Virus record (IMG/VR): IMGVR_UViG_2667528074_000003
Coordinates: 1 to 23,401 of that record
Reading direction: 5' to 3' (one strand)
Origin: a virus
Taxonomy: Duplodnaviria; Heunggongvirae; Uroviricota; Caudoviricetes
DNA length: 23,401 nucleotides
Shown here piece after piece: positions 1 to 17,764 of the stretch (position 1 is the first letter of the stretch; every line of letters begins with the position of its first letter). The notes under the pieces are model-generated. The model did no database searches. It saw only the letters and a list, made by a program, of their open reading frames with translations, and was not told where the DNA came from. The translations under genes and the position numbers were made by a program.

Positions 1-615
1 ATGTTAGTTAGTAAAAGCAACGGATTTAACGCTAGCGCAGTTTTGGGTAGTGGAAGTTATAATGAAAATAAATCTTCTAAACACATGGAGCTACTAGCTC
101 ATAGTATTTTAAAATTAATTTGTAAGGAAGCTGCATCAGAGACGTATCGCGGTGCTCTTGAAACTTTACAAAAAATGATGTCTGAATGTATATATCATGA
201 AGGCAACGCCTTTGTCATTATGGGAGTTGGAGAACAATTAAAACGTATTAAATATGAAGTTGGTGAAAATAACTTAAAGGTATTCAACGTACACTTTAAT
301 AATAATCACGAGTTAGTTAGTTCTGGTGAGCCTGACGTAATATGTTTAAGCAAGCAGGTCTGGGAAAATCTTCTCATTAAACTAAAGCTGGAAAACAATG
401 AAAATGTGTTTTCTGAAACTAAAAAATTATCGAATAAAAATAATGACGATCAGTTTTTTGAATGCGCTAAAAGAAATGAACAGAACCTTTTCGATAATAT
501 AAGAAAAAGTGATTTTCATGTTGGTTTACTTAAGCCAAGTAGTACGCGTAGTGTTATTTTAGAAACGCCGCCAAATGTCTGTATGGAATCACGTAATTCA
601 TATGAAAAAAAATAG
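1..615 (+). CDS. hypothetical protein, low-GC; possibly the 5' part of a longer gene split at an A8 tract
   Basis: 204-codon ORF in AT-rich DNA starting at the window edge (true start may lie upstream); ends TAG 613-615 directly after an A8 run (605-612). No recognisable domain. Confidence 0.35.
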   Translation: MLVSKSNGFNASAVLGSGSYNENKSSKHMELLAHSILKLICKEAASETYRGALETLQKMMSECIYHEGNAFVIMGVGEQLKRIKYEVGENNLKVFNVHFNNNHELVSSGEPDVICLSKQVWENLLIKLKLENNENVFSETKKLSNKNNDDQFFECAKRNEQNLFDNIRKSDFHVGLLKPSSTRSVILETPPNVCMESRNSYEKK

Positions 616-629
616 ATGAGATTTCATCT

Positions 630-1373
630 TTGTCAGAGTCAAAGGAACACCCCATAGATATTCAAGAAAAAAAAGATGCGTTTGTGAATGAGTTCAAGGG
701 GATATTATTTGATAAAAATGGAAGGTCTTCAGAGTTTCTACTTAATTTTTATGAATGTTGCTATGAGTTTTTACCAAGAGCGCAGCCTCAGGATAAAATC
801 GAAAGCTATAATTCAGCACTGCAAGCTTTCTCCATCTTTTGTTCATCTACGTTGATACATAATAATATAGGCTTTGATTTCAAATTATTTCCAGAAGTCA
901 AACTGTGTGGGGAAAATCTTGAAACGGTATTCAAATATAAAAATGGCGATGATGTCCGGGAGATAGCCAAAATTAACATTACTCTCCAAAAAGAAGAGGA
1001 TGGTTTATATAATTTAGGTGGATTGGATTTTAAGGGATGCTTCTTTTCTGGACAGAACTTCAGTAACTATGATATTCAATATGTGAACTGGGGAACGTCA
1101 TTGTTTGATCTTGATACTCCGTGTATTTTTAATGCGCCTGCTTACAACAAGAGTAATGAAAAATCATTAAAACCTGTGAGCGAAAACGGTTTAAGTGGAG
1201 TCTTGACTGATCGTAATAATAAAATAAAACTCATCACGGGCGTGGCACCATTCGATGATATTTTATTTATGGATGATGACTTTGATGATAGTTCCTCTGA
1301 GGATGATCCCGTTGAGAATAGTCCTGTTGTGACTAGTCCCGTTGTATCAAGTTCTAAAAGCAGTTTTCAATGA
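630..1373 (+). CDS. hypothetical protein, low-GC, acidic Ser/Asp-rich C-terminus; possibly the 3' part of a frameshifted gene
   Basis: 247-codon ORF with TTG start, no in-frame ATG near the 5' end and no Shine-Dalgarno; one extra A in the upstream A8 tract would fuse it in frame to ORF 1-615. Segment LDFKGCFFSGQNFSNYDIQYVNWG is loosely pentapeptide-repeat-like. Confidence 0.4.
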   Translation: MSESKEHPIDIQEKKDAFVNEFKGILFDKNGRSSEFLLNFYECCYEFLPRAQPQDKIESYNSALQAFSIFCSSTLIHNNIGFDFKLFPEVKLCGENLETVFKYKNGDDVREIAKINITLQKEEDGLYNLGGLDFKGCFFSGQNFSNYDIQYVNWGTSLFDLDTPCIFNAPAYNKSNEKSLKPVSENGLSGVLTDRNNKIKLITGVAPFDDILFMDDDFDDSSSEDDPVENSPVVTSPVVSSSKSSFQ

Positions 1374-1758
1374 TTAATAAATGGCTATTTTTACAAAGAG
1401 ATAATAACGTAGATTGAAACAATATGTATTATTGATTGATTAAACGGGATTATTTTTTACACTACAACCATTTTGCTGCCACTACCAAAGAAAAAGGGGC
1501 TACGCTTTCACGTAACCCCTTGATTTATTTGTTGAGCTGGCGGTGTCTGAATTGGTGCTGTAATTGGTTGAAATATTTATTCTAATGTCTGGTTCAACTT
1601 TCCTTAGCTGCCTGAAAGTTTTTTTGATCTTACCCATCAATAATAGGGTTACGGTACACCACGCCTGACTGATGAACTGCGTGCTCAGGGTTACCTCTTC
1701 AACGTAAAACCGTGGCAGGAGGTCCGGACTGAAAAAACTGCTCAGGACATTATCGGCG

Positions 1759-2016
1759 GTGGACGCACGGGTAGTCTGTAAACCGAACCGACTGGGGCGC
1801 AGTATGTGGCATCTTGTCGTGCTGTTGGAGGAGCTGTGCAAACGTGGTATTAACTTTCGTGCTCTGGCCCAATCTATATTTGCCCAACAATGGGGGGACG
1901 AATGCTGTAAAAGTAAAAGAATCTGCGATCTCAAAGTTATTGTGTTATTTTTATGTGAGCAGAAGATATTCATCAGAAACGATTATGTAAATCATTTTAT
2001 TTTGCCGACGGCCTGA
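1759..2016 (+). pseudogene. remnant of a Pin/Hin-type serine recombinase (DNA invertase), internal fragment only
   Basis: Translation VVCKPNRLGRSMWHLVVLLEELCKRGINFRALAQSIF matches the conserved central block of serine invertases as I recall it (Pin: VVWKLDRLGRSMKHL...ELRERGINFRSLTDSID). No N-terminal catalytic-Ser region or C-terminal HTH; the ORF tail is unrelated. Confidence 0.5.
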
Positions 2017-2285
2017 TTGTCGAAAGAAAAGAATACCCCCGTATTCCCTGAATAGATTGACTTTTTTATCCAACCATACTTCAGCGCACTGCGTTTAAAA
2101 AATGCTTCTTTCTTATGTGGAATATCATCATTTCATCATGATGTCTTTGATGAGCGGTGAACACAATACACTTGCGCTGTCTCTTCAGGATGAATCCCCT
2201 GGTCTGGTGCCTGTGGGCTGATGTTGCAGCAGAGCTAAGGTCGCTTAAACGCTACTCAGTATTCACTTTTCAGAGGATGAAATTT

Positions 2286-5200
2286 ATGAACAGGACCAGT
2301 CCCCATTATTGTCGCCGCTCAGTACTTTCCTTATTGATATCTGCCTTGATATATGCCCCGCCTGGGATGACGGCCTTCACTCCTGATGTTATTGGTGTGG
2401 TAAACGATGAGACTGTAGATGGCAGCCAAAGAGTAGATGAACGAGGTACAACAAATAACACTCATATTATCAACCATGGCCAGCAGAATGTTCATGGCGG
2501 GGTATCTAATGGAAGTCTTATTGAATCGGGTGGATATCAAGATGTAGGAAGTCATAACAATTTTGTGGGGCAGGCTAATAATACAACCATTAACGGAGGA
2601 AGACAGACAATTCATGACGGGGGCATTTCCACCGGTACGATAATCGACAGTGGCAATCAGGACGTTTATACAGGTGGTATCAGCAATGGAACGACAATTA
2701 AGGGTGGTAATTCACACATAAGTGGGGGGACTGCGAATGGAACCATCATTGATGGTGGAGGGCAGAAAGTAACAACTCAGGGGCATGTTGATGGTACAAC
2801 GATAAATAAGTCCGGTTATCAGGACATCACGCAAGGAAGTATTGCAACGAACACAATCATAAATGGTGGACGACAGTATGTTGAACAGAGCACAGTAGGA
2901 ACAACCACCATTAAAAATGGCGGTGAGCAAAGAGTATATGAAAGCCATGCGCTGGACACGACGATTGAAGGTGGAACTCAGTCTCTGAATAATAAGTCAA
3001 CGGCAAAAATACTCAGATCTATTCTGGTGGTACGCAAATTGTTGATTACACCAGCTCCTCGGATGTTATTGAAGTTTATTCCGGTGGCGTGCTTGATGTT
3101 AGTGGTGGTACGGCAACAAATGTTACCCAGCACGATGGTGCAATTTTAAAAACAAACACTAACGGTACGACGGTGAGCGGTACGAATAGTGAAGGTGCAT
3201 TCTCCATCCACAATCACGTGGCAGACAATGTGTTGCTGGAAAACGGTGGTCATTTAGACATAAACGCATATGGTTCGGCAAACAAGACGATTATTAAAGA
3301 TAAAGGAACAATGTCAGTTTTAACGAATGCTAAAGCTGATGCGACCCGAATAGATAACGGCGGGGTAATGGATGTTACCGGAAACGCGACCAATACCATA
3401 ATCAATGGTGGTACACAGAATATTAATAATCATGGTATTGCCACGGGTACCAATATCAACGGCGGAACGCAAAATATCAAGAGCGGCGGGAAAGCTGACA
3501 CGACAATTATATCCTCCGGGAGCCGGCAGGTTGTTGAGAAAGATGGTACGGCAACTGGCAGCAATATTAGCGCCGGAGGCTCGCTGATTGTCTATACCGG
3601 TGGTATTGCACATGGGGTTAACCAGGAGACGGGCAGTGCTTTAGTTGCCAACACGGGCGCAGGGACTGATATTGAAGGATACAACAAGCTCTCTCACTTC
3701 ACTATTACCGGAGGGGAGGCTAATTATGTTGTGCTGGAAAATACCGGCGAACTGACGGTAGTGGCTAAAACCTCGGCGAAAAATACTACCGTTGATGCTG
3801 GCGGTAAGCTGATTGTCCAGAAGGAGGCTAAAACAGATACCACCAGACTTAATAATGGTGGCGTTCTGGAGGTTCAGGACGGTGGTGAGGCTAAGCATGT
3901 TGAGCAACAATCCGGCGGCGCATTAATTGCTTCCACAACTTCCGGAACCCTTATCGAAGGAACCAACAGTTATGGTGATGCTTTCTACATCAGGAATTCA
4001 GAAGCTAAAAATGTAGTGCTGGAAAACGCTGGCTCATTAACAGTCGTCACTGGTTCCCGGGCAGTTGATACGATTATTAATGCCAACGGCAAAATGGATG
4101 TTTATGGAAAAGATGTTGGCACTGTACTCAATAGTGCTGGCACCCAAACAATATATGCCAGTGCCACTTCTGATAAAGCAAATATCAAAGGTGGCAAGCA
4201 AACGGTATATGGATTAGCCACTGAGGCAAATATCGAAAGTGGTGAACAAATTGTTGATGGTGGGTCAACAGAGAAAACACACATCAATGGTGGCACGCAA
4301 ACCGTTCAGAATTATGGTAAGGCAATCAATACCGATATCGTCTCTGGCCTACAACAAATTATGGCAAACGGGACAGCGGAAGGTTCCATTATTAATGGGT
4401 GTTCACAGGTAGTTAATGAGGGCGGTCTGGCTGAAAACTCGGTGCTTAATGACGGCGGCACACTCGATGTGCGGGAGAAAGGCAGCGCAACGGGGATACA
4501 GCAGAGTAGCCAGGACGCTTTGGTTGCAACCACCAGGGCGACGCGGGTCACAGGAACACGCGCGGATGGCGTCGCGTTCAGCATCGAGCAGGGTGCGGCG
4601 AACAATATCCTGCTGGCAAATGGCGGCGTGTTAACCATGGAGTCAGACACCTCTTCTGACAAAACACAGGTCAATACGGGCGGACGGGAGATCGTCAAAA
4701 CAAAAGCCACTGCGACAGGCACGACGCTCACCGGCGGCGAACAAATCGTCGAGGGGGTGGCGAATGAGACAACGATTAACGACGGCGGAATACAAACAGT
4801 TTCAGCTAACGGAGAGGCAATAAAAACAAAGATCAATGAAGGCGGTACGCTGACAGTTAACGATAATGGCAAAGCGACAGATATCGTCCAGAACAGCGGT
4901 GCCGCTCTCCAGACGAGCACGGCTAACGGTATTGAAATCAGCGGTACTCACCAGTACGGCACTTTTTCCATTTCCGGCAATTTAGCGACCAATATGTTGC
5001 TGGAAAATGGCGGTAATTTATTGGTATTAGCAGGTACCGAAGCTCGCGACTCCACGGTTGGCAGCGGTGGAGCCGCCAACGGCAGTTATCGCAGCAACGG
5101 GCTGGGCGGTCACATTGAAACCGGGATGCGATTTACCGATGGTAACTGGAACCTGACGCCGTATGCATCGTTAACGGGGGTTCACCGCTGATAACCCTGA

Positions 5201-5546
5201 ATATCATTTATCCAATGGCATGGAATCGAAATCAGTCGATACCCGCAGTTTATATCGTGAACTGGGTGCAACGCTGAGTTACAACATGCGTCTGGGGAAC
5301 GGTATGGAAGTTGAGCCGTGGCTGAAGGCGGCTGTGCGCAAAGAATTTGTCGATGATAACCGGGTGAAAGTGAATAGTGACGGTAATTTCGTCAATGATT
5401 TGTCGGGCAGACGTGGAATATACCAGGCAGGTATTAAAGCCTCATTCAGCAGTACGTTAAGCGGGCATCTTGGGGTGGGGTATAGCCATGGTGCCGGTGT
5501 GGAATCCCCGTGGAACGGGGTAGCTGGTGTGAACTGGTCGTTCTGA
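2286..5546 (+). pseudogene. AIDA-type autotransporter adhesin gene, disrupted by three homopolymer frameshifts and with a shortened beta-barrel domain
   Basis: RBS GAGGA then ATG 2286; signal-peptide-like N-terminus MNRTSPHYCRRSVLSLLISALIYAPPGMTA; long passenger of ~19-aa repeats (GGxQxVxxGGxAxxTxI); autotransporter C-terminus ending VAGVNWSF. Frame changes at A5 (3005-3009), and G5 (5176-5180); the barrel-like part is only ~150 aa. Confidence 0.6.
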
Positions 5547-5706: not shown

Positions 5707-5733
5707 TGGTGGAGCTGGCGGGAGTTGAACCCG
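5707..5733 (-). other. prophage attachment-site core: 27-nt copy of the 3' end of tmRNA (ssrA)
   Basis: Reverse complement reads CGGGTTCAACTCCCGCCAGCTCCACCA, which is a T-arm plus acceptor-3' strand plus CCA and matches the ssrA 3' terminus as I remember it. Not a complete RNA gene: the sequence beyond 5734 is unrelated. Integrase stop lies 133 bp away. Confidence 0.6.
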
Positions 5734-5865
5734 TGATCGGAATTCACATAGTTTATTGAATATGAACGATTTATTTTTTCACGCAAGGAATTATGTGCAT
5801 TTTACGTACATATTGTTGTCCCTGTAACGTCCTGATTCTGTACAATATTCTGAAATATTTTACCG

Positions 5866-7038
5866 TTACCGGGCTGCAGAAATCGCCGTTTTTCCATCGT
5901 ATTCTGCAAGGTAAGAGCCGTAATGTCTGAACAGCATTTCCGGTCCTTTGTGCCCCATCTGACCAGCCAGCCAGAACAGGTTAACGCCCTGGCTAATGTG
6001 CCGAGTGGCGAACGTATGGCGTGTCTGGTACGGATTGCGATAACGTACACCAGCCTTTTTAAGGGTCGGTACCCAGGCTTTTTTGCGGATCGCATCTGCG
6101 TTTGCCCAGGGAGCTCGAGTTTTCGGATCGCTGAATATGAAGTCGCTTTTTAGCGCCGTGTAGGGCTTTTGTGCCTGAAGAGCTACCAGCGCTTCGTTGT
6201 TCAGTTGTACTTTGCGAGTACCGGCTTTTGTTTTGGTACTTTTGATTACCCCGACTACGCTTGCAGTCTGGACATGTGCTGTGTTGCCGATGAAGTCTAT
6301 ATCTGTCCAGCGCAACGCGCACAATTCCGAGCTGCGTAGTCCGGTATTAAAGGCGAAACGAAACAGATTTTGCCATTCCGGGTAATGACAGGCGTCATAG
6401 ATTGCTGCTGTCTCTGCTGGCGTAAAAGGATCGACCTCGTAATCATCACTGCCTGGTGTGTTGTCCAATACGTGATACCGGCTGGCGCTGACCAGCGTGA
6501 CAGGATTTATTGTTAACAAACCATCGGTCACCGCTTCATCTATGGCGCTGCGCAGAAATGAAAGATTATTGCGGATCGTTTTCAGTTTTGTTTTTCTGCT
6601 GGCGATCCAGTTTTTGAGTACTGCAGGTGTCAGTTCTGATACATGAAATTTATGCAGTGCTGACAGTGCAGACAGGCATTTTTCATACCCTTTAATTGTC
6701 GATGGCGACAGGTTACGGTTCTGGCAGATAGTCAGGTATTCATCCAGGTAAGATTTTATATTTTTGTTTTTTTTCACTCCCCCGAACAGCTCCAGCTTTT
6801 GGGAGTTGGGGAAGTATTTTGCATATTCGAAGGTACCACCGATAATCTGATTTTTTATTTCTCCCAGCAGACGCTCGGCATACTTCACACCGCGCGCGTT
6901 TACTTCCATTCTGGAGAGGGGCTCCCGACACAGAACCCCTTTATATGTAAAAGTGATAACCAGAGTGCTACCAGTTTTATGCTGGCGAATAGTTACTCCT
7001 CTAGGGAGAGATAATGATCCTTGTTCTTTCTTGCCCAT
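5866..7038 (-). CDS. int: tyrosine site-specific integrase (lambda Int family)
   Basis: 390 aa; C-terminal catalytic region with RHTFATRHISQG and LAGQMGHKGPEMLFRHYGSY (conserved His/Arg and catalytic Tyr); GGAG RBS; adjacent to att core and transcribed toward it. Confidence 0.9.
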   Translation of the reverse strand: MGKKEQGSLSLPRGVTIRQHKTGSTLVITFTYKGVLCREPLSRMEVNARGVKYAERLLGEIKNQIIGGTFEYAKYFPNSQKLELFGGVKKNKNIKSYLDEYLTICQNRNLSPSTIKGYEKCLSALSALHKFHVSELTPAVLKNWIASRKTKLKTIRNNLSFLRSAIDEAVTDGLLTINPVTLVSASRYHVLDNTPGSDDYEVDPFTPAETAAIYDACHYPEWQNLFRFAFNTGLRSSELCALRWTDIDFIGNTAHVQTASVVGVIKSTKTKAGTRKVQLNNEALVALQAQKPYTALKSDFIFSDPKTRAPWANADAIRKKAWVPTLKKAGVRYRNPYQTRHTFATRHISQGVNLFWLAGQMGHKGPEMLFRHYGSYLAEYDGKTAISAAR

Positions 7039-7202
7039 TTTGAAATCTCCATTAAGTCGACCCAGCGTTCTTTAACTCCGTCGACTTTTAATACATGTAC
7101 CCCTTCTTTCCATATTCCTCTTTGTATCCGTTTGTTAACGGCATCAACCGTTTCTCCCGCGTCGCGGCAGTAGGTTGATATAGGTACGCAATCCAGCCCC
7201 AT
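6993..7202 (-). CDS. xis: excisionase-like small DNA-binding protein
   Basis: 69 aa, basic, directly upstream of and overlapping int by 46 nt; strong RBS GAGGTGA 5 nt before ATG 7202. Assignment by position and size, not by clear motif. Confidence 0.55.
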   Translation of the reverse strand: MGLDCVPISTYCRDAGETVDAVNKRIQRGIWKEGVHVLKVDGVKERWVDLMEISKWARKNKDHYLSLEE

Positions 7203-7210
7203 ACATCACC

Positions 7211-7357
7211 TCACACAACATTTAGCCCACGGCAGTGGCACCACACTTCAAACATTCGCTTCACAATTTCACGACAATAGAAACCGTCAACATCTCGCGT
7301 CAGGTCATAGCTATTGCCGTAACGCTGGCGTACCCATAGCTCAAACGCTTTATTCAT
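7211..7357 (-). CDS. hypothetical small protein (48 aa)
   Basis: Not in the ORF track (<60 aa). ATG 7357 preceded by AAGGAAG; its stop TGA sits 8 nt before the xis start; translation MNKAFELWVRQRYGNSYDLTRDVDGFYCREIVKRMFEVWCHCRGLNVV. Confidence 0.35.
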   Translation of the reverse strand: MNKAFELWVRQRYGNSYDLTRDVDGFYCREIVKRMFEVWCHCRGLNVV

Positions 7358-7360
7358 TCT

Positions 7361-7603
7361 TTACTTCCTTTTCATGGCACGTAATTTTTTCAGATGAGCT
7401 TCCTGTTCTGTTTCTGCCAGAATTTGTCGGTATTCCTGGTGATCGATCCGTTCAAACGATTCATTAAAATCGTTCATTTTTACCGATTGTGTTTGCCCGT
7501 CCATTCTTCTGTACAACACGGTGTTGTTTATGTAGCGAACAATTTTTACCGGGTAACCGGCACTGTCGGTATACAGTTGTCCTTGATTAATCAGAGCGAA
7601 CAT
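7361..7603 (-). CDS. hypothetical protein (80 aa)
   Basis: Internal start of the 121-codon track ORF chosen because AGGAGA lies 6 nt upstream of ATG 7603; tightly packed with the flanking genes. Confidence 0.5.
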   Translation of the reverse strand: MFALINQGQLYTDSAGYPVKIVRYINNTVLYRRMDGQTQSVKMNDFNESFERIDHQEYRQILAETEQEAHLKKLRAMKRK

Positions 7604-7634
7604 TTTTTCTCCTGCTCTCTGAATAGTGAGAACT

Positions 7635-8018
7635 TCAGAGTCGTATGTTTGTAGCGGGTTTAATACTGATAATTTCTGCTGAGACAAGCATCCCGGCAAG
7701 CCAGAGCTCTCTGGACAGGTCTTCATCCTGGCATATCAGTTCGCCAATATTAATGGTGGCCATGATATCCGTTTCCCCAGTACGCTTATCCCTGACTTCT
7801 TCATAAGGTAGCGTTGCGTACAGGCTTTCAATAGCGCAACTGATAACATCCAGTCCGGTCAGATTGCCGCCGACAGTAACTTCGAATGTTTCGCGGTATT
7901 CCCATAGTCCGAAAGTTAATCGAACGGTTTGTTTTGCCATGCGTCCGCACGACGTCAGATTCGGGTCATAGTTCATTATTTTCGGTTGAGTATTCTGGTT
8001 GTTCATCTGATTTTTCAT
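7635..8018 (-). CDS. hypothetical protein (~127 aa; start uncertain)
   Basis: Track ORF 7635-8081 would overlap the SPFH gene by 35 nt, so the in-frame ATG at 8018 is preferred; no clear SD. A perfect 6-bp GC hairpin (8024-8039) lies just upstream. Confidence 0.4.
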   Translation of the reverse strand: MKNQMNNQNTQPKIMNYDPNLTSCGRMAKQTVRLTFGLWEYRETFEVTVGGNLTGLDVISCAIESLYATLPYEEVRDKRTGETDIMATINIGELICQDEDLSRELWLAGMLVSAEIISIKPATNIRL

Positions 8019-8046
8019 TAACCCGGCGGTTTGCCGGGCATATAAG

Positions 8047-8874
8047 TTATTTAATCTGGATAAATGGTGTATTGGCACCACTGGTCATGTATTGCGGCAG
8101 TGTACCGTTCCACTTGTTGATGGCTTCCAGTTCCATGACGCCTGGGTTCTGGCGCAGAGCTTCGCCGCGTAAACGAATGGCATCGGCTTCTGCCTGGGCT
8201 TTTGTACGAATCGCATCAGCCTGTCCGGCAGCTTCCGCGCGCAGCATGTTGGCTTCCGCTTCGCGCTGTTTTACTTCCTGCTCGCGTTGCAGGGTTTTCT
8301 GGTTCGCCGTGACTTTGGCATTAATGCTGTCGATAACGGTTGGCGGGTATTCCGGCTTACCCACATATGAGAGGCTCATTACCTGAATACCAATGGGTGT
8401 CATTTCTTCCTGAATGTCTTTGAGAGCTGCATCCAGAAGTTCAGACTTACCGCCGTCGATAAATTTGTCGGTGGTCATTTTGCTGGCCAGTCGGTTGAGT
8501 GCATCTGCGATCTTCTGGCGCAGGTCTGTGTCGGTAATGTCATCCACGCCTTTGCGGTAGGTCTGAAACACCGTGGTAACTTTGGATGGATCAACTTTGT
8601 AGGCCACACCGATGTGATAGCCGATGGTTGTACCGTCACTCATCTGGAAACTGAACGGTTCATCGTAGGTCTTCATTTGTTTGAAGGTGGGGAAGATATA
8701 AACTTCAGTATTCCAGCCAGTCCAGTAGCGACCAACACCGACCACCTCACCGACGCCTTTGTCGTCGCCCAGTTTATTTACCTTGATGCCAACATTACCT
8801 GGTTCAACGCGATCGCAACCGACAAGGCCAATGGTCGGAATAACAATGGCTAAAGCAAAAATAACTTTTTTCAT
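8047..8874 (-). CDS. SPFH/band-7 (stomatin-prohibitin-flotillin-HflK/C) domain lipoprotein
   Basis: 275 aa; N-terminal signal with lipobox (MKKVIFALAIVIPTIGLVGC); SPFH-like core; C-terminal Ala/Glu/Arg/Gln-rich coiled coil (QREQEVKQREAEANMLRAEAAGQADAIRTKAQAEADAIRLRGEAL); AAGGA RBS; ATGA overlap with the upstream gene. Confidence 0.8.
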   Translation of the reverse strand: MKKVIFALAIVIPTIGLVGCDRVEPGNVGIKVNKLGDDKGVGEVVGVGRYWTGWNTEVYIFPTFKQMKTYDEPFSFQMSDGTTIGYHIGVAYKVDPSKVTTVFQTYRKGVDDITDTDLRQKIADALNRLASKMTTDKFIDGGKSELLDAALKDIQEEMTPIGIQVMSLSYVGKPEYPPTVIDSINAKVTANQKTLQREQEVKQREAEANMLRAEAAGQADAIRTKAQAEADAIRLRGEALRQNPGVMELEAINKWNGTLPQYMTSGANTPFIQIK

Positions 8875-9059
8875 CTTTTATCCTTAGTGAAAGAAAGACC
8901 CTTGTAAATGGCATAAATGCAGGGCGGGGTCAGAAACGCCAGTGCAAAGCCGGAAATGACTGCTACCGTATCCTTCATGGATATAAGGAACGGGACGAGT
9001 AGTCCGTAAATGCATGCGATAATTGCCAGTAAAATTACTATTCTGAAATACAATCTCAT
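8871..9059 (-). CDS. small two-helix membrane protein, translationally coupled to the SPFH lipoprotein
   Basis: 62 aa with two hydrophobic stretches (IVILLAIIACIYGLLVPFLI and VISGFALAFLTPPCIYAIY); its stop overlaps the SPFH start (ATGA). Weak RBS. Confidence 0.55.
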   Translation of the reverse strand: MRLYFRIVILLAIIACIYGLLVPFLISMKDTVAVISGFALAFLTPPCIYAIYKGLSFTKDKR

Positions 9060-9203
9060 TGGTTTGTTGCATCCCGATATTTTTAACTGACTGACAGCGC
9101 AATAAAGAGAATAATGATTTCTGTTAGTGTCAGTACTGTGGCAAGGATTAAAAACAGTTTTACTCTGCTTAATTCACGGTTGCTTTTCATATAAACGGTT
9201 AGT

Positions 9204-9229
9204 AAAAAAACGGAAGAATTATATTCTTC
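9204..9229 (-). terminator. rho-independent terminator downstream of the 193-aa gene
   Basis: Minus strand reads GAAGAAT-ATA-ATTCTTC followed by CG and T7, beginning 8 nt after the stop at 9237. Confidence 0.5.
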
Positions 9230-9236
9230 TTAATAT

Positions 9237-9818
9237 TTAATGTGTCACTGGTGCTTCTGGTATACCATGAGTATTCAGATCGTGAATCATTTCATCCAGA
9301 AGGAGTTCAAGCCCTTCGCGCCCCATAGCAGAGACAATGAAGCCATTATCAGGATCTGCGATGAGCATTTTTTGATAGAGAAACAGAACTCGCCCCATGC
9401 CTTCATCTTCGCCATATTTTTCAATAAATCCCCATTCGACATGGTTTTGCAGGGCAATGCGAAGTGGCCCCGGGTATATACTCATACAACCATGCTTTCC
9501 CTTATAAATAACTGCGTGATCTGTGGTTCCGTTATCGTTAGGGATATCAATGGTACCGTTCTTGTTTTCCTCTTCACTGATAAACGTCGCCACATACAGC
9601 CAGCGCCATTGAGCAACCTTCATATCGACTGAAAATCTTCCCAGGAATCCGGCATCATCGGCTTCTGCAATACATTGCATGATTCTTAAACCGTGCCAGC
9701 ATGGATTGTCGTACTCACCATCATTAAGACGCTGTACGGCCTCAACATAATCAATGGTTGTACTGTCAATTTTTATGCCATGAGCTGTCGCTTCTGGTTT
9801 GAATTCAAAATTGTTCAT
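9237..9818 (-). CDS. hypothetical protein (193 aa), downstream member of an overlapping two-gene unit
   Basis: ATG 9818 preceded by AAGGAA; start overlaps the stop of the upstream 72-aa ORF (ATGA); no recognisable domain. Confidence 0.6.
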   Translation of the reverse strand: MNNFEFKPEATAHGIKIDSTTIDYVEAVQRLNDGEYDNPCWHGLRIMQCIAEADDAGFLGRFSVDMKVAQWRWLYVATFISEEENKNGTIDIPNDNGTTDHAVIYKGKHGCMSIYPGPLRIALQNHVEWGFIEKYGEDEGMGRVLFLYQKMLIADPDNGFIVSAMGREGLELLLDEMIHDLNTHGIPEAPVTH

Positions 9819-10033
9819 AATGTTTGTTCCTTTGCTGGTGGAATAATCGTGTAACCCGCTCTTTTTGCCATCCACAGAAATGTATCCATGCAACCAACGA
9901 ATTCATTATCCAACAGATGTTTTGAGTAAATCACTTTCCCATTTTCAATGGTCAACAACACTCTTACTTTTTCGTGTATTACCCCCCCCTGCTCAGGCTC
10001 ATTCTGCATTTTATTTCGTGCTGATGTCTCCAT
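9815..10033 (-). CDS. hypothetical protein (72 aa), upstream member of the overlapping two-gene unit
   Basis: ATG 10033 preceded by GGGAGA at 8 nt (the track start at 10048 is an alternative); stop overlaps the next start. Confidence 0.55.
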   Translation of the reverse strand: METSARNKMQNEPEQGGVIHEKVRVLLTIENGKVIYSKHLLDNEFVGCMDTFLWMAKRAGYTIIPPAKEQTL

Positions 10034-10231
10034 TATTTTATCTCCCATAAGCCTTGCGCAAATACAGGTTGGCTATATGAAGATAAGAATCTCCATGTTG
10101 TGCAATGAGGCAGGCAGTTTTATACGATGCCTTATTTTTCAGGAAAGTCATAACTGAGTTCCCTCTATGAATAAAAGTTGTAACAATTCCCGGCGATAAA
10201 ACCGTAATAAACGTTCAGGGCATATTGGTTG

Positions 10232-10597
10232 TTATTGCGCTAATTCTTTTTCGGCAGCAGCATTTGCATATTCACATGCAAAATTCAGAATTTCGCTGCC
10301 AAGTGTTTTTGTTTCATGATTACTGGACATATGTAATACCTGTGTTGCATGCAATAAATGATAAACATTGACCGCAAATGAATCAGGTTCCAGACAAATG
10401 CCTTCATAATCATCTTGCTGTGAGGTTGTTTCTGTCATTGTTCCCGAAGTACATGCGAACCTGTTTTTGACAATACTCTTTCCTCTAATCACTATATCGG
10501 CAACATCTATTGCTTTTATAACCTCCGGGAGAAATTCCTGGTTTGTATAATCAAACTCATCAACACAGAGAACGGTTATGTTTTCGAACTTTTTCAT
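10232..10597 (-). CDS. hypothetical protein (121 aa) whose C-terminal ~65 aa are paralogous to the N-terminal domain of the upstream 153-aa HTH protein
   Basis: ATG 10597 overlaps the stop of gene 10594-11055 (ATGA). Shared block: DSFAVNVYHLLHATQVLHMSSNHETKTLGSEILNFACEYANAAA versus DSFALNIANLLSAVRTFHLLDCARSKELGIEVMEFIHEYALSAA. Confidence 0.6.
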   Translation of the reverse strand: MKKFENITVLCVDEFDYTNQEFLPEVIKAIDVADIVIRGKSIVKNRFACTSGTMTETTSQQDDYEGICLEPDSFAVNVYHLLHATQVLHMSSNHETKTLGSEILNFACEYANAAAEKELAQ

Positions 10598-11055
10598 GCG
10601 CAAGTATCTCCAGCTGTTGGTTTACCGGTTAACAGCCACATCGGATCGCAACCAAGAACATTTGCCAGCGGGATAAGCATACTGATAGTTGGTTCATACT
10701 CTCCGCTCTCCCACTGGATGATGATATCTTCATCGAGATCGAGCAGACTGGCGAGTTCGGCTGTTGTTAAGCCGCAGGCTTCGCGTTGGGTGCGAAGGTT
10801 AACCAGCCAGCTTTTAGGGAAGGATTGTTTTTGTTGTGCAGGAGAAGCCGCAGATAGAGCATATTCATGGATAAATTCCATTACCTCAATGCCCAGTTCC
10901 TTTGAGCGAGCACAATCCAGAAGATGGAATGTGCGTACAGCACTTAGCAAATTTGCAATATTTAATGCAAAGGAATCAAGTTCTAAGCCCTTAAGCGTAA
11001 CACAGCCGCAGTTGATAAAATTAGTTGTTTCTGGAGTTGCGTTTAGTGTCTTCAT
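10594..11055 (-). CDS. two-domain regulator: N-terminal domain of unknown function plus C-terminal XRE-type helix-turn-helix
   Basis: 153 aa; C-terminal HTH LRTQREACGLTTAELASLLDLDEDIIIQWESGEYEPTISMLIPLANVLGCDPMWLL; first gene downstream of the pL-like promoter; RBS GGTGGA. Confidence 0.65.
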   Translation of the reverse strand: MKTLNATPETTNFINCGCVTLKGLELDSFALNIANLLSAVRTFHLLDCARSKELGIEVMEFIHEYALSAASPAQQKQSFPKSWLVNLRTQREACGLTTAELASLLDLDEDIIIQWESGEYEPTISMLIPLANVLGCDPMWLLTGKPTAGDTCA

Positions 11056-11108
11056 ATATCCACCAACAATTTTAAATTGAACTAAATCAAGTTATAATTG
11101 ATGGTGCG

Positions 11109-11137
11109 ATATTATGCTTTGAGAAATAGGCTGTCAA
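11109..11137 (-). promoter_or_regulatory. sigma70 promoter for the leftward early operon (pL analogue)
   Basis: Minus strand: TTGACA, 17-nt spacer, TAATAT, placed between the cI terminator and the 153-aa gene; leader contains palindromes ATCAA-N7-TTGAT and CAATTTAAAATTG. Confidence 0.5.
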
Positions 11138-11165
11138 GAAAAAATTGATATCGTGTGTTTTAGGC

Positions 11166-11189
11166 AGAAAAAAACGGGCAAAGCCCGTT
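11166..11189 (-). terminator. rho-independent terminator downstream of cI
   Basis: Minus strand AACGGGC-TTT-GCCCGTT followed by a T tract, starting 12 nt after the cI stop. Confidence 0.6.
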
Positions 11190-11200
11190 AAAATCAAAGA

Positions 11201-11890
11201 CTAACCAAATCTGTTTATATTGAATGGTACTGATGAGATCACTTTAGACTGGATATAAAGCAGAGCTAACCCCTCTTTTTCGATGCTCCATGGTTGATAA
11301 TTGGGGTTATCAGATAACACCATGATTTTGCTTCCAATTTTTTGAAGTCTTTTCACGTAGCATTCTCCATCAAAACAAAATGCATAAATGCCATCGCCAT
11401 CAAAATAAGTTACTGTCTTATCAAGAAAAAGAAGGTCGCCAGGTGAGATTGTGGGAGCCATACTGTCTCCTCTGGCGTTGCCTATTTCTATATTTTTAAA
11501 TGCTCGGTTTCCAACAAGACGACGGGCATATTCAGGATCAAGTTCTATTGAGCGTACTACATCTATAAAGTCTCCGCGGACATGGGTCCCATTACCGCAA
11601 CTAAATTCAACGTCAAGTACATTAAACACGACGCTATCTGTTCTTGCCTGATGTTTCTCTTGCGAAGAGAAGGTTGGTGAGGTGTCTTCACCTAAGAACC
11701 AGGATTGTGGATAACCGCTAATCTCTGATAACTGCGCAAGCTTATCGCTCCGTGGAAATGTTTTTCCTGTGGTCCAGTACTGCACTGATTGCGCACTCAC
11801 CCCCAGCTTACGGGCCAGCTGAGCCTGAGTCCATCCTTTTGCTTTCAGCATTGCGGCTATTCTATTTTCTGTGTTTTTGACGTTCTTCAT
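11201..11890 (-). CDS. cI: CI-type prophage repressor (N-terminal HTH plus C-terminal S24/LexA-like autopeptidase)
   Basis: 229 aa; HTH WTQAQLARKLGVSAQSVQYW; S24 motifs GDSMAPTISPGD (Ser nucleophile) and CYVKRLQK (Lys); divergent from a cro-like gene. Confidence 0.85.
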   Translation of the reverse strand: MKNVKNTENRIAAMLKAKGWTQAQLARKLGVSAQSVQYWTTGKTFPRSDKLAQLSEISGYPQSWFLGEDTSPTFSSQEKHQARTDSVVFNVLDVEFSCGNGTHVRGDFIDVVRSIELDPEYARRLVGNRAFKNIEIGNARGDSMAPTISPGDLLFLDKTVTYFDGDGIYAFCFDGECYVKRLQKIGSKIMVLSDNPNYQPWSIEKEGLALLYIQSKVISSVPFNINRFG

Positions 11891-12023
11891 GACCAGGTCC
11901 CGTGGGTTTCTTTACAAGGGTAAATCTTTACTTGATTTTAGTGTATTCGATCCTTTTGCAACTTGCATGTTAATTTAAACTTGATGTATTCTTGATTCAT
12001 TAAGTTTATCTTGGTGATTTGTT
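11891..12023. promoter_or_regulatory. immunity-region operator/promoter interval between cI and cro (OR analogue)
   Basis: 133-bp divergent intergenic region with four CTTGAT-type repeats (ACTTGATTTTA, ACTTGATGTAT, TCTTGATTCAT, TCTTGGTGATT) and palindrome TTTACaaggGTAAA; the same ACTTGAT motif recurs in the pL leader. Exact -35/-10 not resolved. Confidence 0.5.
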
Positions 12024-12296
12024 ATGAAAGGAAATGATTACGACGAACTTCGTGCATTAATTGCGCAAAATGCCATAGCGCGAAATCTTGGTGTGACACC
12101 GCAAGCGGTGAATCAGTGGTTTTCAAAAAGCACAATTCCTGCTCGTTTCGTTTTACGGGTATGTGAGGTGGTTGCATGGAAGGTTACGCCTCATGGCTTA
12201 AGGCCAGATCTTTACCCTCACCCTGAAGATGGAATTCCTGATTCGTTACGCAAAACATCAAATCCAAGCTTAGCGCACACGGGGGAGGGGAGGTAA
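12024..12296 (+). CDS. cro: Cro-like small HTH regulator (YdaS/Cro type)
   Basis: 90 aa, divergent from cI; HTH-like LGVTPQAVNQWF; RBS GGTGA 6 nt upstream. Confidence 0.7.
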   Translation: MKGNDYDELRALIAQNAIARNLGVTPQAVNQWFSKSTIPARFVLRVCEVVAWKVTPHGLRPDLYPHPEDGIPDSLRKTSNPSLAHTGEGR

Positions 12297-12302
12297 GGAA
12301 GT

Positions 12303-12431
12303 ATGAACGAAGAACGAATCGAATGCATTCTTGAGGCCATATCAGCCCTTACCGACGAAGAGATTCAGGAGGCAAGGACTGTTGCTGAAAAAACAGCCTT
12401 AGCTTTGGGATTTTCGGTTAATCCTGGTTGA
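12303..12431 (+). CDS. hypothetical small protein (42 aa) translationally coupled to cro
   Basis: Not in the ORF track; ATG 12303 lies 6 nt after the cro stop with RBS AAGGAAG; translation MNEERIECILEAISALTDEEIQEARTVAEKTALALGFSVNPG. Confidence 0.4.
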   Translation: MNEERIECILEAISALTDEEIQEARTVAEKTALALGFSVNPG

Positions 12432-12645
12432 TGGAGTTATCCAGAACGGCAGCGATGTATTCACACATATCCTGTCCTCGCTCCCTCTGCTGTTGCGGCT
12501 GACTTTTCAGGTTTTTAATTAACTCCATTCCGGATGCTGCGAGCTTTATTCGCTCTTGGATGGGAAGGGACGACAGCAATAAACCAAGTAATGCCTCAAG
12601 GCCGTCTAGCTTGGTTTCAACGCTGAATTTAGTTGTATCAGTCAT
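12418..12645 (-). CDS. hypothetical protein (75 aa) convergent with and overlapping the 3' end of the cro operon
   Basis: ATG 12645 preceded by AAGGAAA and by an extended -10 promoter; helical, charged sequence; overlaps the 42-aa ORF by 14 nt. Confidence 0.45.
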   Translation of the reverse strand: MTDTTKFSVETKLDGLEALLGLLLSSLPIQERIKLAASGMELIKNLKSQPQQQRERGQDMCEYIAAVLDNSINQD

Positions 12646-12678
12646 AGGTAATTTCCTTACTGGTTGTGTGAGAACTCC

Positions 12679-12715
12679 AGTATACCACCGAGCCTGAAGT
12701 GGTTAAAAGACAGGC
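12679..12715 (-). promoter_or_regulatory. leftward extended -10 promoter (TGGTATACT)
   Basis: Minus strand TGG-TATACT about 25 nt upstream of the RBS of the 75-aa ORF; weak -35 (TTAACC). Confidence 0.45.
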
Positions 12716-12940
12716 AAATTGAAGAGGCTAACCATGACTCCAGAAGAATTTATCTGCAAACACATAACGGAAAAGCTGGTGGCGGAGGGCTTCCCTGAAA
12801 TTGTTGCCAGGGGGGGGCATGCCGGGGACTGGATTACTACCGCCGTAGCTCGCAGGCCAGCCGCAAAGGAGCGATGTTTAATGATTGCTTGTTTCGTGCG
12901 CGGCAATGGGCACTTGGTCAGACAAATGTTACTGAGCGAA

Positions 12941-12984
12941 AGGAAAAGAAAAAGCCGGGCCGGATTAAGGTGGGCCAGCCCGGC
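12941..12984 (-). terminator. rho-independent terminator for leftward transcripts
   Basis: Minus strand GCCGGGCTGG..loop..CCGGCCCGGC (10 bp including one G-U) followed by TTTTTCTTTTCC. Confidence 0.4.
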
Positions 12985-13129
12985 CTGTCCTGACTTACCT
13001 TTGGAATCAACCTTCAAGGAGCTGTTCCATGATAAACGCCCGATTAATCACTGATCCTGACCGCCAACCGGAGGGCATTAATCACCAGACTGGAAAAGGC
13101 CTCAATCATCTGACTAAAGGACATTGATC

Positions 13130-13441
13130 ATGCTTAACATTAGCAGCACTCAAAAATTAGTCAACCCTTCAGATCCTGTTGGACAAATTCCGGTCGAACA
13201 GTGGTACAGAAGAACGTACGTGGTTTCAGAGTACGCCCGCACTTATACCGAGACAATTATCGGAAAGGCCAAATGCCCCTGTTCCGCAGCTGTGAATGGT
13301 GCGATGGCAATACGTAACGCCAATCCTTCGGTTTTATCCATCCGTTTTATAAGTATTGAGCAGCTTTCTCCTGAAGAAGGAGAGGCCAGCGAGCGCGCCC
13401 TTAACGCCTGGTTTGAGAAACATCCTGAGGAGATTGAATGA
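13130..13441 (+). CDS. hypothetical protein (103 aa) coupled to the downstream Rha-like gene
   Basis: ATG 13130 (the track TTG at 13124 is less likely); stop overlaps the ATG of gene 13438-14148. Confidence 0.5.
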   Translation: MLNISSTQKLVNPSDPVGQIPVEQWYRRTYVVSEYARTYTETIIGKAKCPCSAAVNGAMAIRNANPSVLSIRFISIEQLSPEEGEASERALNAWFEKHPEEIE

Positions 13442-14148
13442 TGAACACCGCAATTTTTAACGACAAAGTATCCATGACCAGCGTTGAAATCGCAGAGCTG
13501 GTTGGAAGTCAACACGGCAATGTCAGAATATCAATAGAGCGTCTGGCAAAACGCGGGGTGATTCAACTTCCTGCAATGCAAAAAGTTGAGAACGAACAAT
13601 CATTTAGCCAAAACAAATTCACAAACGCATATATTTTCGAAGGCGAACAAGGCAAACGCGACAGCATCATTGTCGTCGCACAACTTTGCCCGGAATTCAC
13701 TGCCCGCCTGGTAGATCGTTGGCGCGAACTGGAAGAGCAGGTGCGCAAACCAATGAGCGAAATCGAAATGGTTGCCGCGATGGCTCTTGAAGTAGTTCGT
13801 CAGCAAAAACGCCTCGACAAGATGGAAGAAAAAGTTAGCCACGTTGCCGAAACTGTCGAACAAATCAAAAGAGGCACCATACGCGATGGTTATGCAGGAT
13901 ACCGTCAGCTGGTGGCGAAAACAGGTATGTCAGATGCTAAATGCCGCAATCTGGTGAACGCATATCAGATCCCTACCGACACCCATGAATTTATGACGCC
14001 AGACGGATTATTGTCTCGTCGCGCGATTGTTGCAGTAGAACCCTTCATGTTTGCTTTTCATCGCATGATGAGTGAAGCAGAACCACGAGGTACTCGCTGG
14101 TATCACCCGAAAATGGGCCTGTTTCAGGCGCTGGGCTGGCAGGTGTAA
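13438..14148 (+). CDS. phage regulatory / antirepressor-like protein with N-terminal Rha-type DNA-binding region
   Basis: 236 aa; N-terminal MTSVEIAELVGSQHGNVRISIERL ... RWRELEEQ resembles the N-terminus of phage Rha/antirepressor proteins as I recall them; C-terminal half unassigned. Confidence 0.65.
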   Translation: MMNTAIFNDKVSMTSVEIAELVGSQHGNVRISIERLAKRGVIQLPAMQKVENEQSFSQNKFTNAYIFEGEQGKRDSIIVVAQLCPEFTARLVDRWRELEEQVRKPMSEIEMVAAMALEVVRQQKRLDKMEEKVSHVAETVEQIKRGTIRDGYAGYRQLVAKTGMSDAKCRNLVNAYQIPTDTHEFMTPDGLLSRRAIVAVEPFMFAFHRMMSEAEPRGTRWYHPKMGLFQALGWQV

Positions 14149-14362
14149 TTATGCTCACAGGTAACACATGCAAGTACTCAATCGCTGGTTCCGCGATGGC
14201 AGAGGGCGTCGCGTCCACGTTATACACTGGGAGTCTGAAACACAGCGGGTCATTTACCTGCGTGATGGTTATTCGCATGAATGCTTCAGTCCGTTGTGGT
14301 TGTTTCGTCGTGATTTTGTGGAGTGTGAAGCGCCGCCAGAGTGACGGCGTAATGGTGGAAAC

Positions 14363-14671
14363 TTACACGAAGCGGATCTGGAGTTTTTTTCCTGTTGCGC
14401 GGGCAAATTTTTTCAGTGTGGAAAATGATGGTCCACTGACACCTGACGCCAGATTACTTTCCATTCTGCTGATGACAGTTGCTTTGGTTCCCATACGCTC
14501 AGCGATCTCAGCTTGGGTTAAACCAGCTTCTTTACGTGCTGCCAGCATTTCATCAAGCAACGCAAATTCGTCGGCGATGGCGTCGTATTCTGCTTTAAAA
14601 GCTGGATCCTCCATCCATTTATCAGCCATTTCATCATGTGTAATGGTTGGCGGATTACGTTTACCAGTCAT
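14363..14671 (-). CDS. HigA-like antitoxin (XRE HTH)
   Basis: 102 aa with HTH GLTQAEIAERMGTKATVISRMESN; immediately downstream of and overlapping (11 nt) the toxin gene, the toxin-first order typical of HigBA modules. Confidence 0.8.
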   Translation of the reverse strand: MTGKRNPPTITHDEMADKWMEDPAFKAEYDAIADEFALLDEMLAARKEAGLTQAEIAERMGTKATVISRMESNLASGVSGPSFSTLKKFARATGKKLQIRFV

Positions 14672-14990
14672 GCTTTACCTCCTTCATTCTGGTTTCAGCT
14701 TTTTGGCGTTCGGCTGGTGGGGTTTTCTGGGTCTTCTTGATGAAACTATGCAGCATGATGATGCGTTTTCCTGCCAGGGTGCAGTAAAAGACGCGTGCGA
14801 TGCCATCACTACCTTTAATCCGAAGCTCGAAAAGCCCGTTACCGAAAGCACTGGTATGAGGTTCTCCGAGATTGCTGCCGTATACCTTCATGCGTTCAAC
14901 AAGATGCTGGTATCGGGCACGCATACTCAATGGAAGCTGGTCGACCTCCAGCCTGACCTCTTCACTGTAGTATTCGATAGTGTAGTTCAT
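14661..14990 (-). CDS. HigB/RelE-superfamily toxin (phage gp49-like mRNA interferase family)
   Basis: 109 aa; characteristic motifs NGLFELRIKGSDGIARVFYC and IMLHSFIKKTQKTP. Confidence 0.8.
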   Translation of the reverse strand: MNYTIEYYSEEVRLEVDQLPLSMRARYQHLVERMKVYGSNLGEPHTSAFGNGLFELRIKGSDGIARVFYCTLAGKRIIMLHSFIKKTQKTPPAERQKAETRMKEVKHDW

Positions 14991-14996
14991 GAGTTA

Positions 14997-15020
14997 AAAC
15001 ATAACAAAATGGTTATGTTT
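14997..15020. promoter_or_regulatory. palindromic operator candidate upstream of the toxin gene
   Basis: Perfect 9-bp inverted repeat AAACATAAC-N6-GTTATGTTT ending 7 nt before the toxin start codon; overlapped by a TTGTGC-17-TATGTT promoter-like element on the minus strand. Confidence 0.4.
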
Positions 15021-17754: not shown

Positions 17755-17764
17755 GGTGACAGCG

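What the first reader, a model, noticed from the sequence alone, without database searches (positions are those of the whole stretch)
2286..5546. Autotransporter adhesin gene inactivated by three homopolymer frameshifts and lacking a full beta-domain
Frame is restored by adding one A to the A5 run at 3005-3009 and by removing one G from the G5 run at 5176-5180; the repaired protein (~1087 aa) goes from signal peptide through AIDA-type repeats to the terminal WSF. The barrel-like C-terminal part is only ~150 aa, so an internal deletion is also likely. Indels at homopolymers could be real decay, phase variation, or sequencing errors.
Basis: seen in the sequence. Interest (0 to 1): 0.4.

Follow-up and report, generated by a model that had tools for sequence, protein, structure and literature searches.

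The report
Decayed E. coli ypjA/ehaD adhesin pseudogene
This is a dead copy of the E. coli surface-adhesin gene ypjA/ehaD, broken by a 1,320-base internal deletion and two one-base slips; the same broken allele sits in hundreds of sequenced strains, so it is real but ordinary gene decay.

Summary
Window 2286-5546 (+) is the E. coli autotransporter adhesin gene ypjA/ehaD, about 96% identical to K-12 b2647, at its normal site between the pinH remnant and ssrA.

It carries three lesions relative to intact alleles:
- A6>A5 at 3005-3009 (-1).
- An in-frame 1,320-nt deletion with its junction at 5061-5063. It removes K-12 residues 927-1366: the passenger end, the pertactin domain, the linker and the first ~42% of the beta-barrel.
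- G4>G5 at 5176-5180 (+1).

There are two frameshifts, not three.

Counts in 5,426 complete E. coli genomes:
- deletion junction: 323
- G5: 321
- A5: 143
- intact middle segment: 2,480
- G4: 2,458

Every sampled A5 carrier also has the deletion and G5. A5 was not found on two other flank types; a control search found A6 on the K-12-type flank in 1,272 genomes.

The lesions are therefore inherited and nested: deletion and G5 arose first, A5 later. This rules out sequencing error. It also rules out functional phase variation, because no tract length restores a translocator. NCBI's PGAP annotation pipeline already marks this allele as a pseudogene. Verdict: already known, low interest.

The parts
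2286..3009 (+). 5' segment of the ypjA/ehaD pseudogene in the original frame. It holds the ATG start, an N-terminal signal-peptide-like region (MNRTSPHYCRRSVLSLLISALIYAPPGMTA) and the first AIDA repeats. As it stands, translation from this ATG stops at 3147-3149 after 287 codons.
   Evidence: The start matches the K-12 ypjA start, and alignment to K-12 runs from CDS nt -199 to 2789 at 96.05% identity.
3005..3009 (+). A5 run, a -1 frameshift. All intact alleles examined, and the sister pseudogene allele in strain W2-5, have A6.
   Evidence: alignments. A5 occurs in 143 genomes. A6 on the same flanks occurs in 547. A5 on K-12-type or KTa008-type flanks occurs in 0. A6 on K-12 flanks occurs in 1,272.
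3010..5180 (+). Middle segment holding the rest of the AIDA-repeat passenger and the start of the barrel remnant. It is out of frame relative to the start codon and shows up mechanically as ORF 3089-5191.
5061..5063 (+). Junction of the in-frame 1,320-nt deletion (K-12 CDS nt 2780-4099, aa 927-1366). The trinucleotide GCA is shared by both ends. In intact alleles the ends lie in 13-nt imperfect direct repeats: GCAAGGGTGGGGC on the left and GCAGCGGTGGAGC on the right.
   Evidence: An 81-nt probe across the junction is fully covered in 323 of 5,426 genomes.
5064..5546 (+). Remnant of the beta-barrel translocator: the last 160 codons plus the stop, interrupted by the G5 frameshift. The ATG-initiated ORF 5220-5546 (108 aa) is what PGAP sometimes calls a separate CDS, WP_000444409.1.
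   Evidence: PF03797 profile positions 107-254 of 255. TIGR01414 positions 268-432 of 432. Annotations.
5176..5180 (+). G5 run, a +1 frameshift. Intact alleles have G4. It returns reading to the original frame, and the shifted frame ends at TGA 5189-5191.
   Evidence: G5 occurs in 321 genomes and G4 in 2,458.
5707..5733 (-). Context only: a 27-nt 3'-end fragment of ssrA (tmRNA) left as the attachment-site copy. The chromosome stops matching prophage-free strains after 5733.
   Evidence: 187 nt after the ypjA stop are identical to strain 165, where ssrA starts at the equivalent position. ARAGORN finds no complete tmRNA in the window.
5866..7038 (-). Context only: the tyrosine integrase of a lambdoid prophage inserted at ssrA next to the pseudogene. 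It is not part of the pseudogene.
   Evidence: The homologous prophage in strain C5 is annotated as tyrosine-type recombinase/integrase.

Best explanation
This is a non-functional remnant of the chromosomal type Va autotransporter adhesin gene ypjA/ehaD. It was inactivated stepwise and is inherited vertically in an E. coli sub-lineage.

Shown:
1. A 1,320-nt in-frame deletion removed the C-terminal end of the passenger, the pertactin domain, the proline-rich linker and about the first 42% of the beta-barrel.
2. A G4>G5 insertion disrupts the remaining barrel.
3. In a nearly clonal subset of those alleles, an A6>A5 deletion truncates translation after 287 codons.

Inferred:
- The deletion arose by slipped misalignment or illegitimate recombination between the 13-nt imperfect direct repeats.
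- The two 1-nt indels arose by replication slippage in short homopolymers.
- The order is deletion and G5 first, in unresolved order relative to each other, then A5.
- Any product, a 287-aa signal-peptide-bearing fragment, cannot reach the surface because no translocator is made. The locus therefore contributes no adhesin function.
For: Identity and synteny:
- The region is 96-97% identical to K-12 ypjA and lies between the ypjC/ypjB and pinH remnants and ssrA.
- NCBI's PGAP pipeline annotates the identical sequence as the ypjA/EhaD pseudogene.

Lesions mapped base by base.

Domain loss:
- K-12 YpjA has AIDA repeats (13 matched stretches), Pertactin at 1057-1179 and the Autotransporter domain at 1265-1504.
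- The repaired window protein keeps only AIDA repeats plus PF03797 positions 107-254.

The lesions are real and inherited:
- The allele is 100% identical in many independent complete genomes.
- Junction 323, G5 321 and A5 143 genomes, against the intact middle segment in 2,480 and G4 in 2,458.

The lesions are nested:
- All 8 A5 carriers checked carry the deletion and G5. These are the window, the six loci tested, and MS6193 (hit H56 = H23, identical over the full query).
- The six fetched A5 loci are 99.69-99.98% identical to the window over 4.9-5.7 kb, with 0-2 substitutions each.
- Strain W2-5 has the deletion, G5 and A6, with zero other differences in the gene.
- Other A6 deletion carriers are more diverged or mosaic.
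- A5 is never seen on K-12-type or KTa008-type flanks (0 and 0 hits). The positive control found 1,272 genomes.
Against: - No expression or protein data exist for this allele, so loss of function is inferred from domain loss.
- The order of the deletion and G5 cannot be resolved: 323 versus 321 genomes. The two discordant genomes were not identified.
- Population counts come from exact 28-mer seeding, so they are lower bounds wherever flanking SNPs exist.
- The window's own reads were not available. The argument against sequencing error rests on identical alleles in other genomes.
Confidence: 0.93

Rival explanations
1. The homopolymer indels are sequencing or assembly errors, for example long-read homopolymer miscalls, and the real gene is intact.
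For: Both indels lie in homopolymers, the typical site of such errors. The window's reads cannot be inspected.
Against: - Exactly the same tract lengths occur in 143 (A5) and 321 (G5) complete genomes from many laboratories, hosts and years.
- The states are phylogenetically nested rather than random.
- Even with both tracts corrected, the 1,320-nt deletion remains. A deletion of that size is not a homopolymer miscall, and it is present in 323 genomes.
Confidence: 0.01
2. The A and G tracts are phase-variation switches (contingency loci) that turn adhesin expression on and off by slipped-strand mispairing.
For: - Adhesin genes are classic phase-variable loci (general knowledge).
- Strain W2-5 differs from the window allele only by A6 versus A5.
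Against: - The tracts are only 4-6 nt, shorter than tracts that switch at useful rates (established knowledge).
- G5 tracks the deletion almost one to one, 321 versus 323 genomes, and G4 is found in 2,458 genomes.
- A5 occurs only in a near-clonal allele and in none of the 1,272 K-12-type genomes.
- No combination of tract lengths restores a translocator, because the deletion removed the linker and about 42% of the barrel.
Confidence: 0.02
3. The short C-terminal domain is a native, functional short-barrel variant, or the fragments have a new function. Candidates are the 287-aa secreted N-terminal piece, the 700-aa internal ORF and the 108-aa barrel piece.
For: - The deletion is in frame.
- PGAP gives the 108-aa ORF a protein accession in some genomes.
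- The allele persists in about 6% of complete genomes.
Against: - The retained piece covers only PF03797 positions 107-254 and TIGR01414 positions 268-432, so it lacks the pore-plugging linker helix and the first strands of the barrel.
- In every carrier sampled, the in-frame fusion is itself broken by G5.
- The 700-aa ORF has no signal peptide of its own, and its GTG start is purely a mechanical ORF call.
- Further hits accumulate on this allele: A5, and IS3 insertions in three strains whose allele is otherwise 100% identical to the window's (H1-H3) and in deletion+G5 carriers S1-CAM-02-A and JNEC-KY179. That is the pattern of an unconstrained pseudogene.
Confidence: 0.03

Closest known systems
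E. coli K-12 YpjA (b2647) / EHEC EhaD, an AIDA-I-type (type Va) autotransporter adhesin associated with biofilm formation
   Same: - Orthologous locus with the same neighbours: ypjC/ypjB, the pinH remnant and ssrA.
- 96-97% nucleotide identity.
- Same start codon and signal-peptide-like N-terminus, same AIDA repeat passenger and same C-terminal ...NWSF.
- The literature places YpjA/EhaD among the biofilm-associated AIDA/Ag43-like autotransporters (PMC9289746, PMC4076661, PMC12547504).
   Different: - It lacks residues 927-1366 of the K-12 protein: the passenger end, the Pertactin domain, the Pro-rich linker and the first ~42% of the barrel.
- It carries two frameshifts, so it cannot make the protein.
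The PGAP-annotated pseudogene allele 'adhesin-like autotransporter YpjA/EhaD; frameshifted; incomplete' or 'AIDA repeat-containing protein; frameshifted', e.g. strain 165 NZ_CP020509 and O177:H21 NZ_CP016546
   Same: 100% identical over all 3,261 nt.
   Different: Nothing in the gene differs. Only the downstream context does: the window has a lambdoid prophage in ssrA where strain 165 has an uninterrupted ssrA.
Other independently inactivated ypjA alleles in E. coli
   Same: The same gene is disrupted in other strains by IS3 or IS1 insertions, and by a separate 1-nt deletion in strain 150, whose sequence grouped with the O157:H7 records.
   Different: These are different lesions at different positions.

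Membership tests
YpjA/EhaD orthologue (by descent) | High nucleotide identity to ypjA along the retained length | tested here: met
   96.05% identity over 2,989 nt and 97.1% over 661 nt to K-12 ypjA.
YpjA/EhaD orthologue (by descent) | Conserved chromosomal position between the ypjB/pinH remnants and ssrA | tested here: met
   DUF5507 and DUF5508 ORFs lie at window 1-1373. The ssrA 3' end is at 5707-5733. The order matches K-12 and 10 other strains.
Functional type Va (classical) autotransporter | N-terminal Sec signal peptide | tested here: inconclusive
   The N-terminus MNRTSPHYCRRSVLSLLISALIYAPPGMTA differs from the first 30 residues of K-12 YpjA at two positions (H7/Y, T29/A) and looks like a signal peptide by eye. 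No signal-peptide predictor was run.
Functional type Va (classical) autotransporter | Beta-helical passenger with AIDA-type repeats | tested here: met
   PF16168 at E=1.6e-141 with 10 matched stretches in the repaired translation. TIGR04415 repeat at E=1.3e-72.
Functional type Va (classical) autotransporter | Pertactin-like/autochaperone junction domain at the passenger C-terminus | tested here: not met
   PF03212 is present in K-12 YpjA at 1057-1179. It is absent from the repaired window protein and lies inside the deleted aa 927-1366.
Functional type Va (classical) autotransporter | Complete C-terminal beta-barrel translocator with its linker | tested here: not met
   Only PF03797 profile positions 107-254 of 255 and TIGR01414 positions 268-432 of 432 remain.
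Functional type Va (classical) autotransporter | Single uninterrupted reading frame from signal peptide to C-terminal aromatic residue | tested here: not met
   Two frameshifts. The first in-frame stop is at 3147-3149, after 287 codons.
Phase-variable contingency locus | Tract-length polymorphism scattered among close relatives | tested here: not met
   G5 (321 genomes) tracks the deletion (323). G4 is in 2,458 genomes. A5 occurs only in a near-clonal allele and in none of the 1,272 K-12-type genomes.
Phase-variable contingency locus | An ON tract length that yields a functional product | tested here: not met
   Repairing both tracts still gives a protein with no linker and a partial barrel.

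The most novel reading that the evidence does not exclude
ypjA/ehaD may be under recurrent selection for loss in E. coli, for example to shed a surface antigen or phage receptor, or to avoid the cost of a silent adhesin. This allele would then be one of several independent knock-outs. Others seen here are IS3 and IS1 insertions and a separate frameshift in strain 150, 3 nt from this deletion's left endpoint. That proximity hints at a mutational hot spot in the GGGTGGGG motif. The evidence does not exclude this reading, but it equally fits neutral decay of a poorly expressed gene.
Probability: 0.15. Interest if true: 0.3.

Novelty: already known. Interest (0 to 1): 0.08.

Why it matters
It matters little beyond bookkeeping. 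The result shows that this strain, like about 6% of complete E. coli genomes, cannot make the YpjA/EhaD adhesin. Presence/absence 'adhesiome' surveys that score ypjA by partial sequence hits may therefore count dead alleles as present. It also exposes an annotation inconsistency: the same 3,261-nt sequence is annotated either as one pseudogene or as a pseudogene plus a 'real' 108-aa barrel-fragment protein.

Tried and rejected
- Sequencing error was rejected on population counts and identical alleles.
- Phase variation was rejected on tract length, on the nested distribution and on the lack of any functional ON state.
- A native short barrel was rejected because the missing segment is present in 2,480 genomes and the retained domain is partial.
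- One search showed no PF03797 hit in the repaired full-length protein. This is a reporting or filter effect: the isolated 160-aa tail hits PF03797 at E=5.6e-26.
- I tried to count genomes carrying the G7 frameshift allele of strain 150 with a 35-mer. The search returned nothing, even though strain 150 itself carries that sequence. BLAST's low-complexity filter on the G7 run is the likely cause, so the count is unknown.
- A direct-repeat search on the K-12 gene failed on a strand restriction. The junction repeats were read from the alignment instead.
- Literature searches found no open-access paper describing this specific deletion allele.
- The promoter/terminator scan gave nothing informative for the gene.

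Full report
**What is there**

The ORF table shows three collinear + strand ORFs: 2157/2286-3149, 3089-5191 and 5220-5546. A megablast of 2286-5546 against 5,426 complete E. coli genomes matches the gene annotated ypjA, 'adhesin-like autotransporter YpjA/EhaD' or 'AIDA repeat-containing protein'. At least 27 genomes match at 100% identity over the full 3,261 nt, and three more are identical apart from an IS3 insertion. In those records PGAP flags the gene as a pseudogene: 'frameshifted; incomplete; missing C-terminus'.

The neighbourhood is the normal ypjA locus:
- ypjC/ypjB-type ORFs (DUF5507, DUF5508) at window 1-1373;
- a recombinase (pinH) remnant;
- ypjA;
- the 3' end of ssrA.

**Mapping the lesions**

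I aligned the region to K-12 ypjA (b2647; 4,581 nt; 1,526 aa). Window 2086-5073 matches CDS nt -199..2789 at 96.05% identity. Window 5061-5721 matches nt 4097..4755 at 97.1%.

Within the gene there are exactly two 1-nt indels:
- A5 at 3005-3009, where K-12 has A6;
- G5 at 5176-5180, where K-12 has G4.

The two alignment blocks overlap by 13 nt. K-12 nt 2780-4099 are absent, which is 1,320 nt or 440 codons, so the deletion is in frame. The junction falls in a shared GCA at window 5061-5063. In intact alleles the two ends lie in imperfect 13-nt direct repeats, GCAAGGGTGGGGC and GCAGCGGTGGAGC. This is the signature of slipped misalignment or illegitimate recombination, which is an inference.

Adding one A and removing one G gives a single 3,261-nt open frame of 1,086 aa plus a stop, running from MNRTSP... 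to ...NWSF. Unrepaired, translation from the ATG at 2286 stops at 3147-3149 after 287 codons.

The 'three homopolymer frameshifts' of the title is not: there are two.

**What the deletion removes**

Pfam on K-12 YpjA finds:
- AIDA repeats, 13 matched stretches;
- Pertactin (PF03212) at 1057-1179;
- a Pro-rich linker;
- the Autotransporter beta-domain (PF03797) at 1265-1504.

The deleted residues 927-1366 take out the end of the passenger, the whole pertactin domain, the linker and the first part of the barrel. The remaining 160-aa tail matches only PF03797 profile positions 107-254 of 255 and TIGR01414 positions 268-432 of 432. Even a frame-repaired product would have no complete translocator.

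**Real or artefact; switch or decay**

I used short probes in which every 28-nt seed must span the lesion. Counts in the 5,426 complete genomes:

| Probe | Genomes |
|---|---|
| Deletion junction | 323 |
| Intact 1,320-nt middle segment | 2,480 |
| G5 | 321 |
| G4 | 2,458 |
| A5, window-type flanks | 143 |
| A6, same flanks (includes the O157-type flank, 1 mismatch) | 547 |
| A5, K-12-type flanks | 0 |
| A5, KTa008-type flanks | 0 |
| A6, K-12-type flanks (positive control) | 1,272 |

- All A5 carriers examined also have the deletion and G5. These are the window, strains 165, O177:H21, QML220601, 158274-3, MEI148-20EC and 2c3, and MS6193 (identical over the full query).
- The six fetched A5 loci are 99.69-99.98% identical to the window over 4.9-5.7 kb, with 0-2 substitutions each.
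- Strain W2-5 has the deletion, G5 and A6, and no other difference in the gene.
- Other deletion+G5 carriers with A6, or an in-frame A>T change in CE0032f, are more diverged or mosaic in the 5' repeats.

The distribution is nested. The deletion and G5 came first, in an order that cannot be resolved, and A5 arose later in a near-clonal subset.

This excludes sequencing error. It also argues against phase variation:
- the tracts are only 4-6 nt;
- G5 tracks the deletion almost one to one;
- A5 is confined to one allele;
- no tract combination can give a working autotransporter.

**Mechanism and consequence**

This part is inferred. The locus makes at most a 287-aa signal-peptide-bearing fragment that cannot be displayed on the surface, so the adhesin function is lost. 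Intact YpjA/EhaD is described as a biofilm-associated AIDA/Ag43-like autotransporter (PMC9289746, PMC4076661, PMC12547504).

Further hits land on the same dead allele in other strains, including IS3 insertions. Independent lesions occur in other ypjA alleles: an IS1 insertion, and a 1-nt deletion in strain 150, an O157-type allele, that creates a G7 run 3 nt from this deletion's left end. Together these fit an unconstrained or dispensable gene.

**Comparison with known things, and novelty**

By descent this is ypjA/ehaD. It fails the tests for a functional type Va autotransporter: no pertactin-like junction domain, no complete barrel and no uninterrupted frame. The allele is already present and annotated as a pseudogene in hundreds of public genomes. 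I found no open-access paper that describes this specific deletion, but nothing about it is unexpected.

**Context**

Immediately downstream, the chromosome matches prophage-free strains for 187 nt past the stop codon. The match ends after a 27-nt ssrA 3' fragment at 5707-5733. A lambdoid prophage follows, encoding:
- an integrase at 5866-7038 (-);
- a cI-like repressor;
- Rha and Ash-Rha ORFs;
- a replicative helicase;
- an antiterminator Q;
- an OmpC-like porin.

No complete tmRNA gene lies in the window, so the intact ssrA is expected beyond the right end.

**Verdict**

The interpretation resolves to ordinary, fixed, stepwise pseudogene decay. It is already known and of low interest.

Noticed in passing
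window 5707-23401: A lambdoid prophage is inserted into the 3' end of ssrA right after the pseudogene. It encodes an integrase at 5866-7038(-), an SPFH/Band-7 protein at 8047-8874(-), an ORF at 11201-11890(-) in the position of the XRE (cI-like) repressor of the strain C5 prophage, a replicative helicase at 18640-20040, a Q antiterminator at 20294-20677 and an OmpC-like porin at 20858-21964(-). The best match in complete genomes covers only 92% at 97.1% identity (strain C5), so this exact prophage mosaic is not in that collection.
   Followed up: partly
window 13438-16333: Three consecutive + strand ORFs all carry a Rha regulatory domain: 236 aa with Rha, 506 aa with Ash+Rha, and 221 aa with Ash+Rha. 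This looks like a tandem duplication or fusion of anti-repressor-like genes. The related strain C5 prophage has a RelE/ParE toxin-antitoxin pair in the corresponding place.
   Followed up: partly
window 1-1373 and about 1700-1900: The neighbouring genes are also decayed. ypjC-like (DUF5507) and ypjB-like (DUF5508) ORFs sit in different frames, and PGAP calls them a frameshifted 'YpjCB family protein'. A short recombinase (pinH) remnant follows. The whole ileY-ssrA interval looks like a decaying old island.
   Followed up: partly
L012 (E. coli strain 150, NZ_CP028592), ypjA nt ~2784: This allele, which grouped with the O157:H7 records, has its own 1-nt deletion turning GGGTGGGG into a G7 run. 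It causes a frameshift with a stop at codon 993. It lies 3 nt from the left endpoint of the 1,320-nt deletion in the window allele. A search for its prevalence returned nothing, probably because of the low-complexity filter.
   Followed up: partly
L013 (S1-CAM-02-A), L017 (JNEC-KY179), hits H1-H3 and H43: Some strains carry additional IS3 or IS1 insertions inside ypjA. H1-H3 carry an IS3 in an allele otherwise identical to the window's. JNEC-KY179 has also lost the equivalent of window 2718-4274 next to its IS3.
   Followed up: partly
window 5220-5546; annotations in L001, L004, L005 versus L002, L006: PGAP annotates the identical 3,261-nt sequence in two ways. In some genomes it is a single frameshifted pseudogene. 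In others it is a truncated pseudogene plus a separate 'real' 108-aa CDS, WP_000444409.1, named as an autotransporter beta-barrel domain-containing protein. That CDS is just the barrel fragment after the G5 frameshift.
   Followed up: yes
L015 (CE0032f) and L013, equivalent to window 2500-3500: Some carriers of the deletion+G5 lesion have a strongly diverged 5' repeat region: about 90 differences clustered in 1 kb, with paired compensating indels. This indicates recombination mosaics within the AIDA repeats. CE0032f has AAAAATT where others have AAAAAAT, an in-frame substitution at the same A tract.
   Followed up: partly
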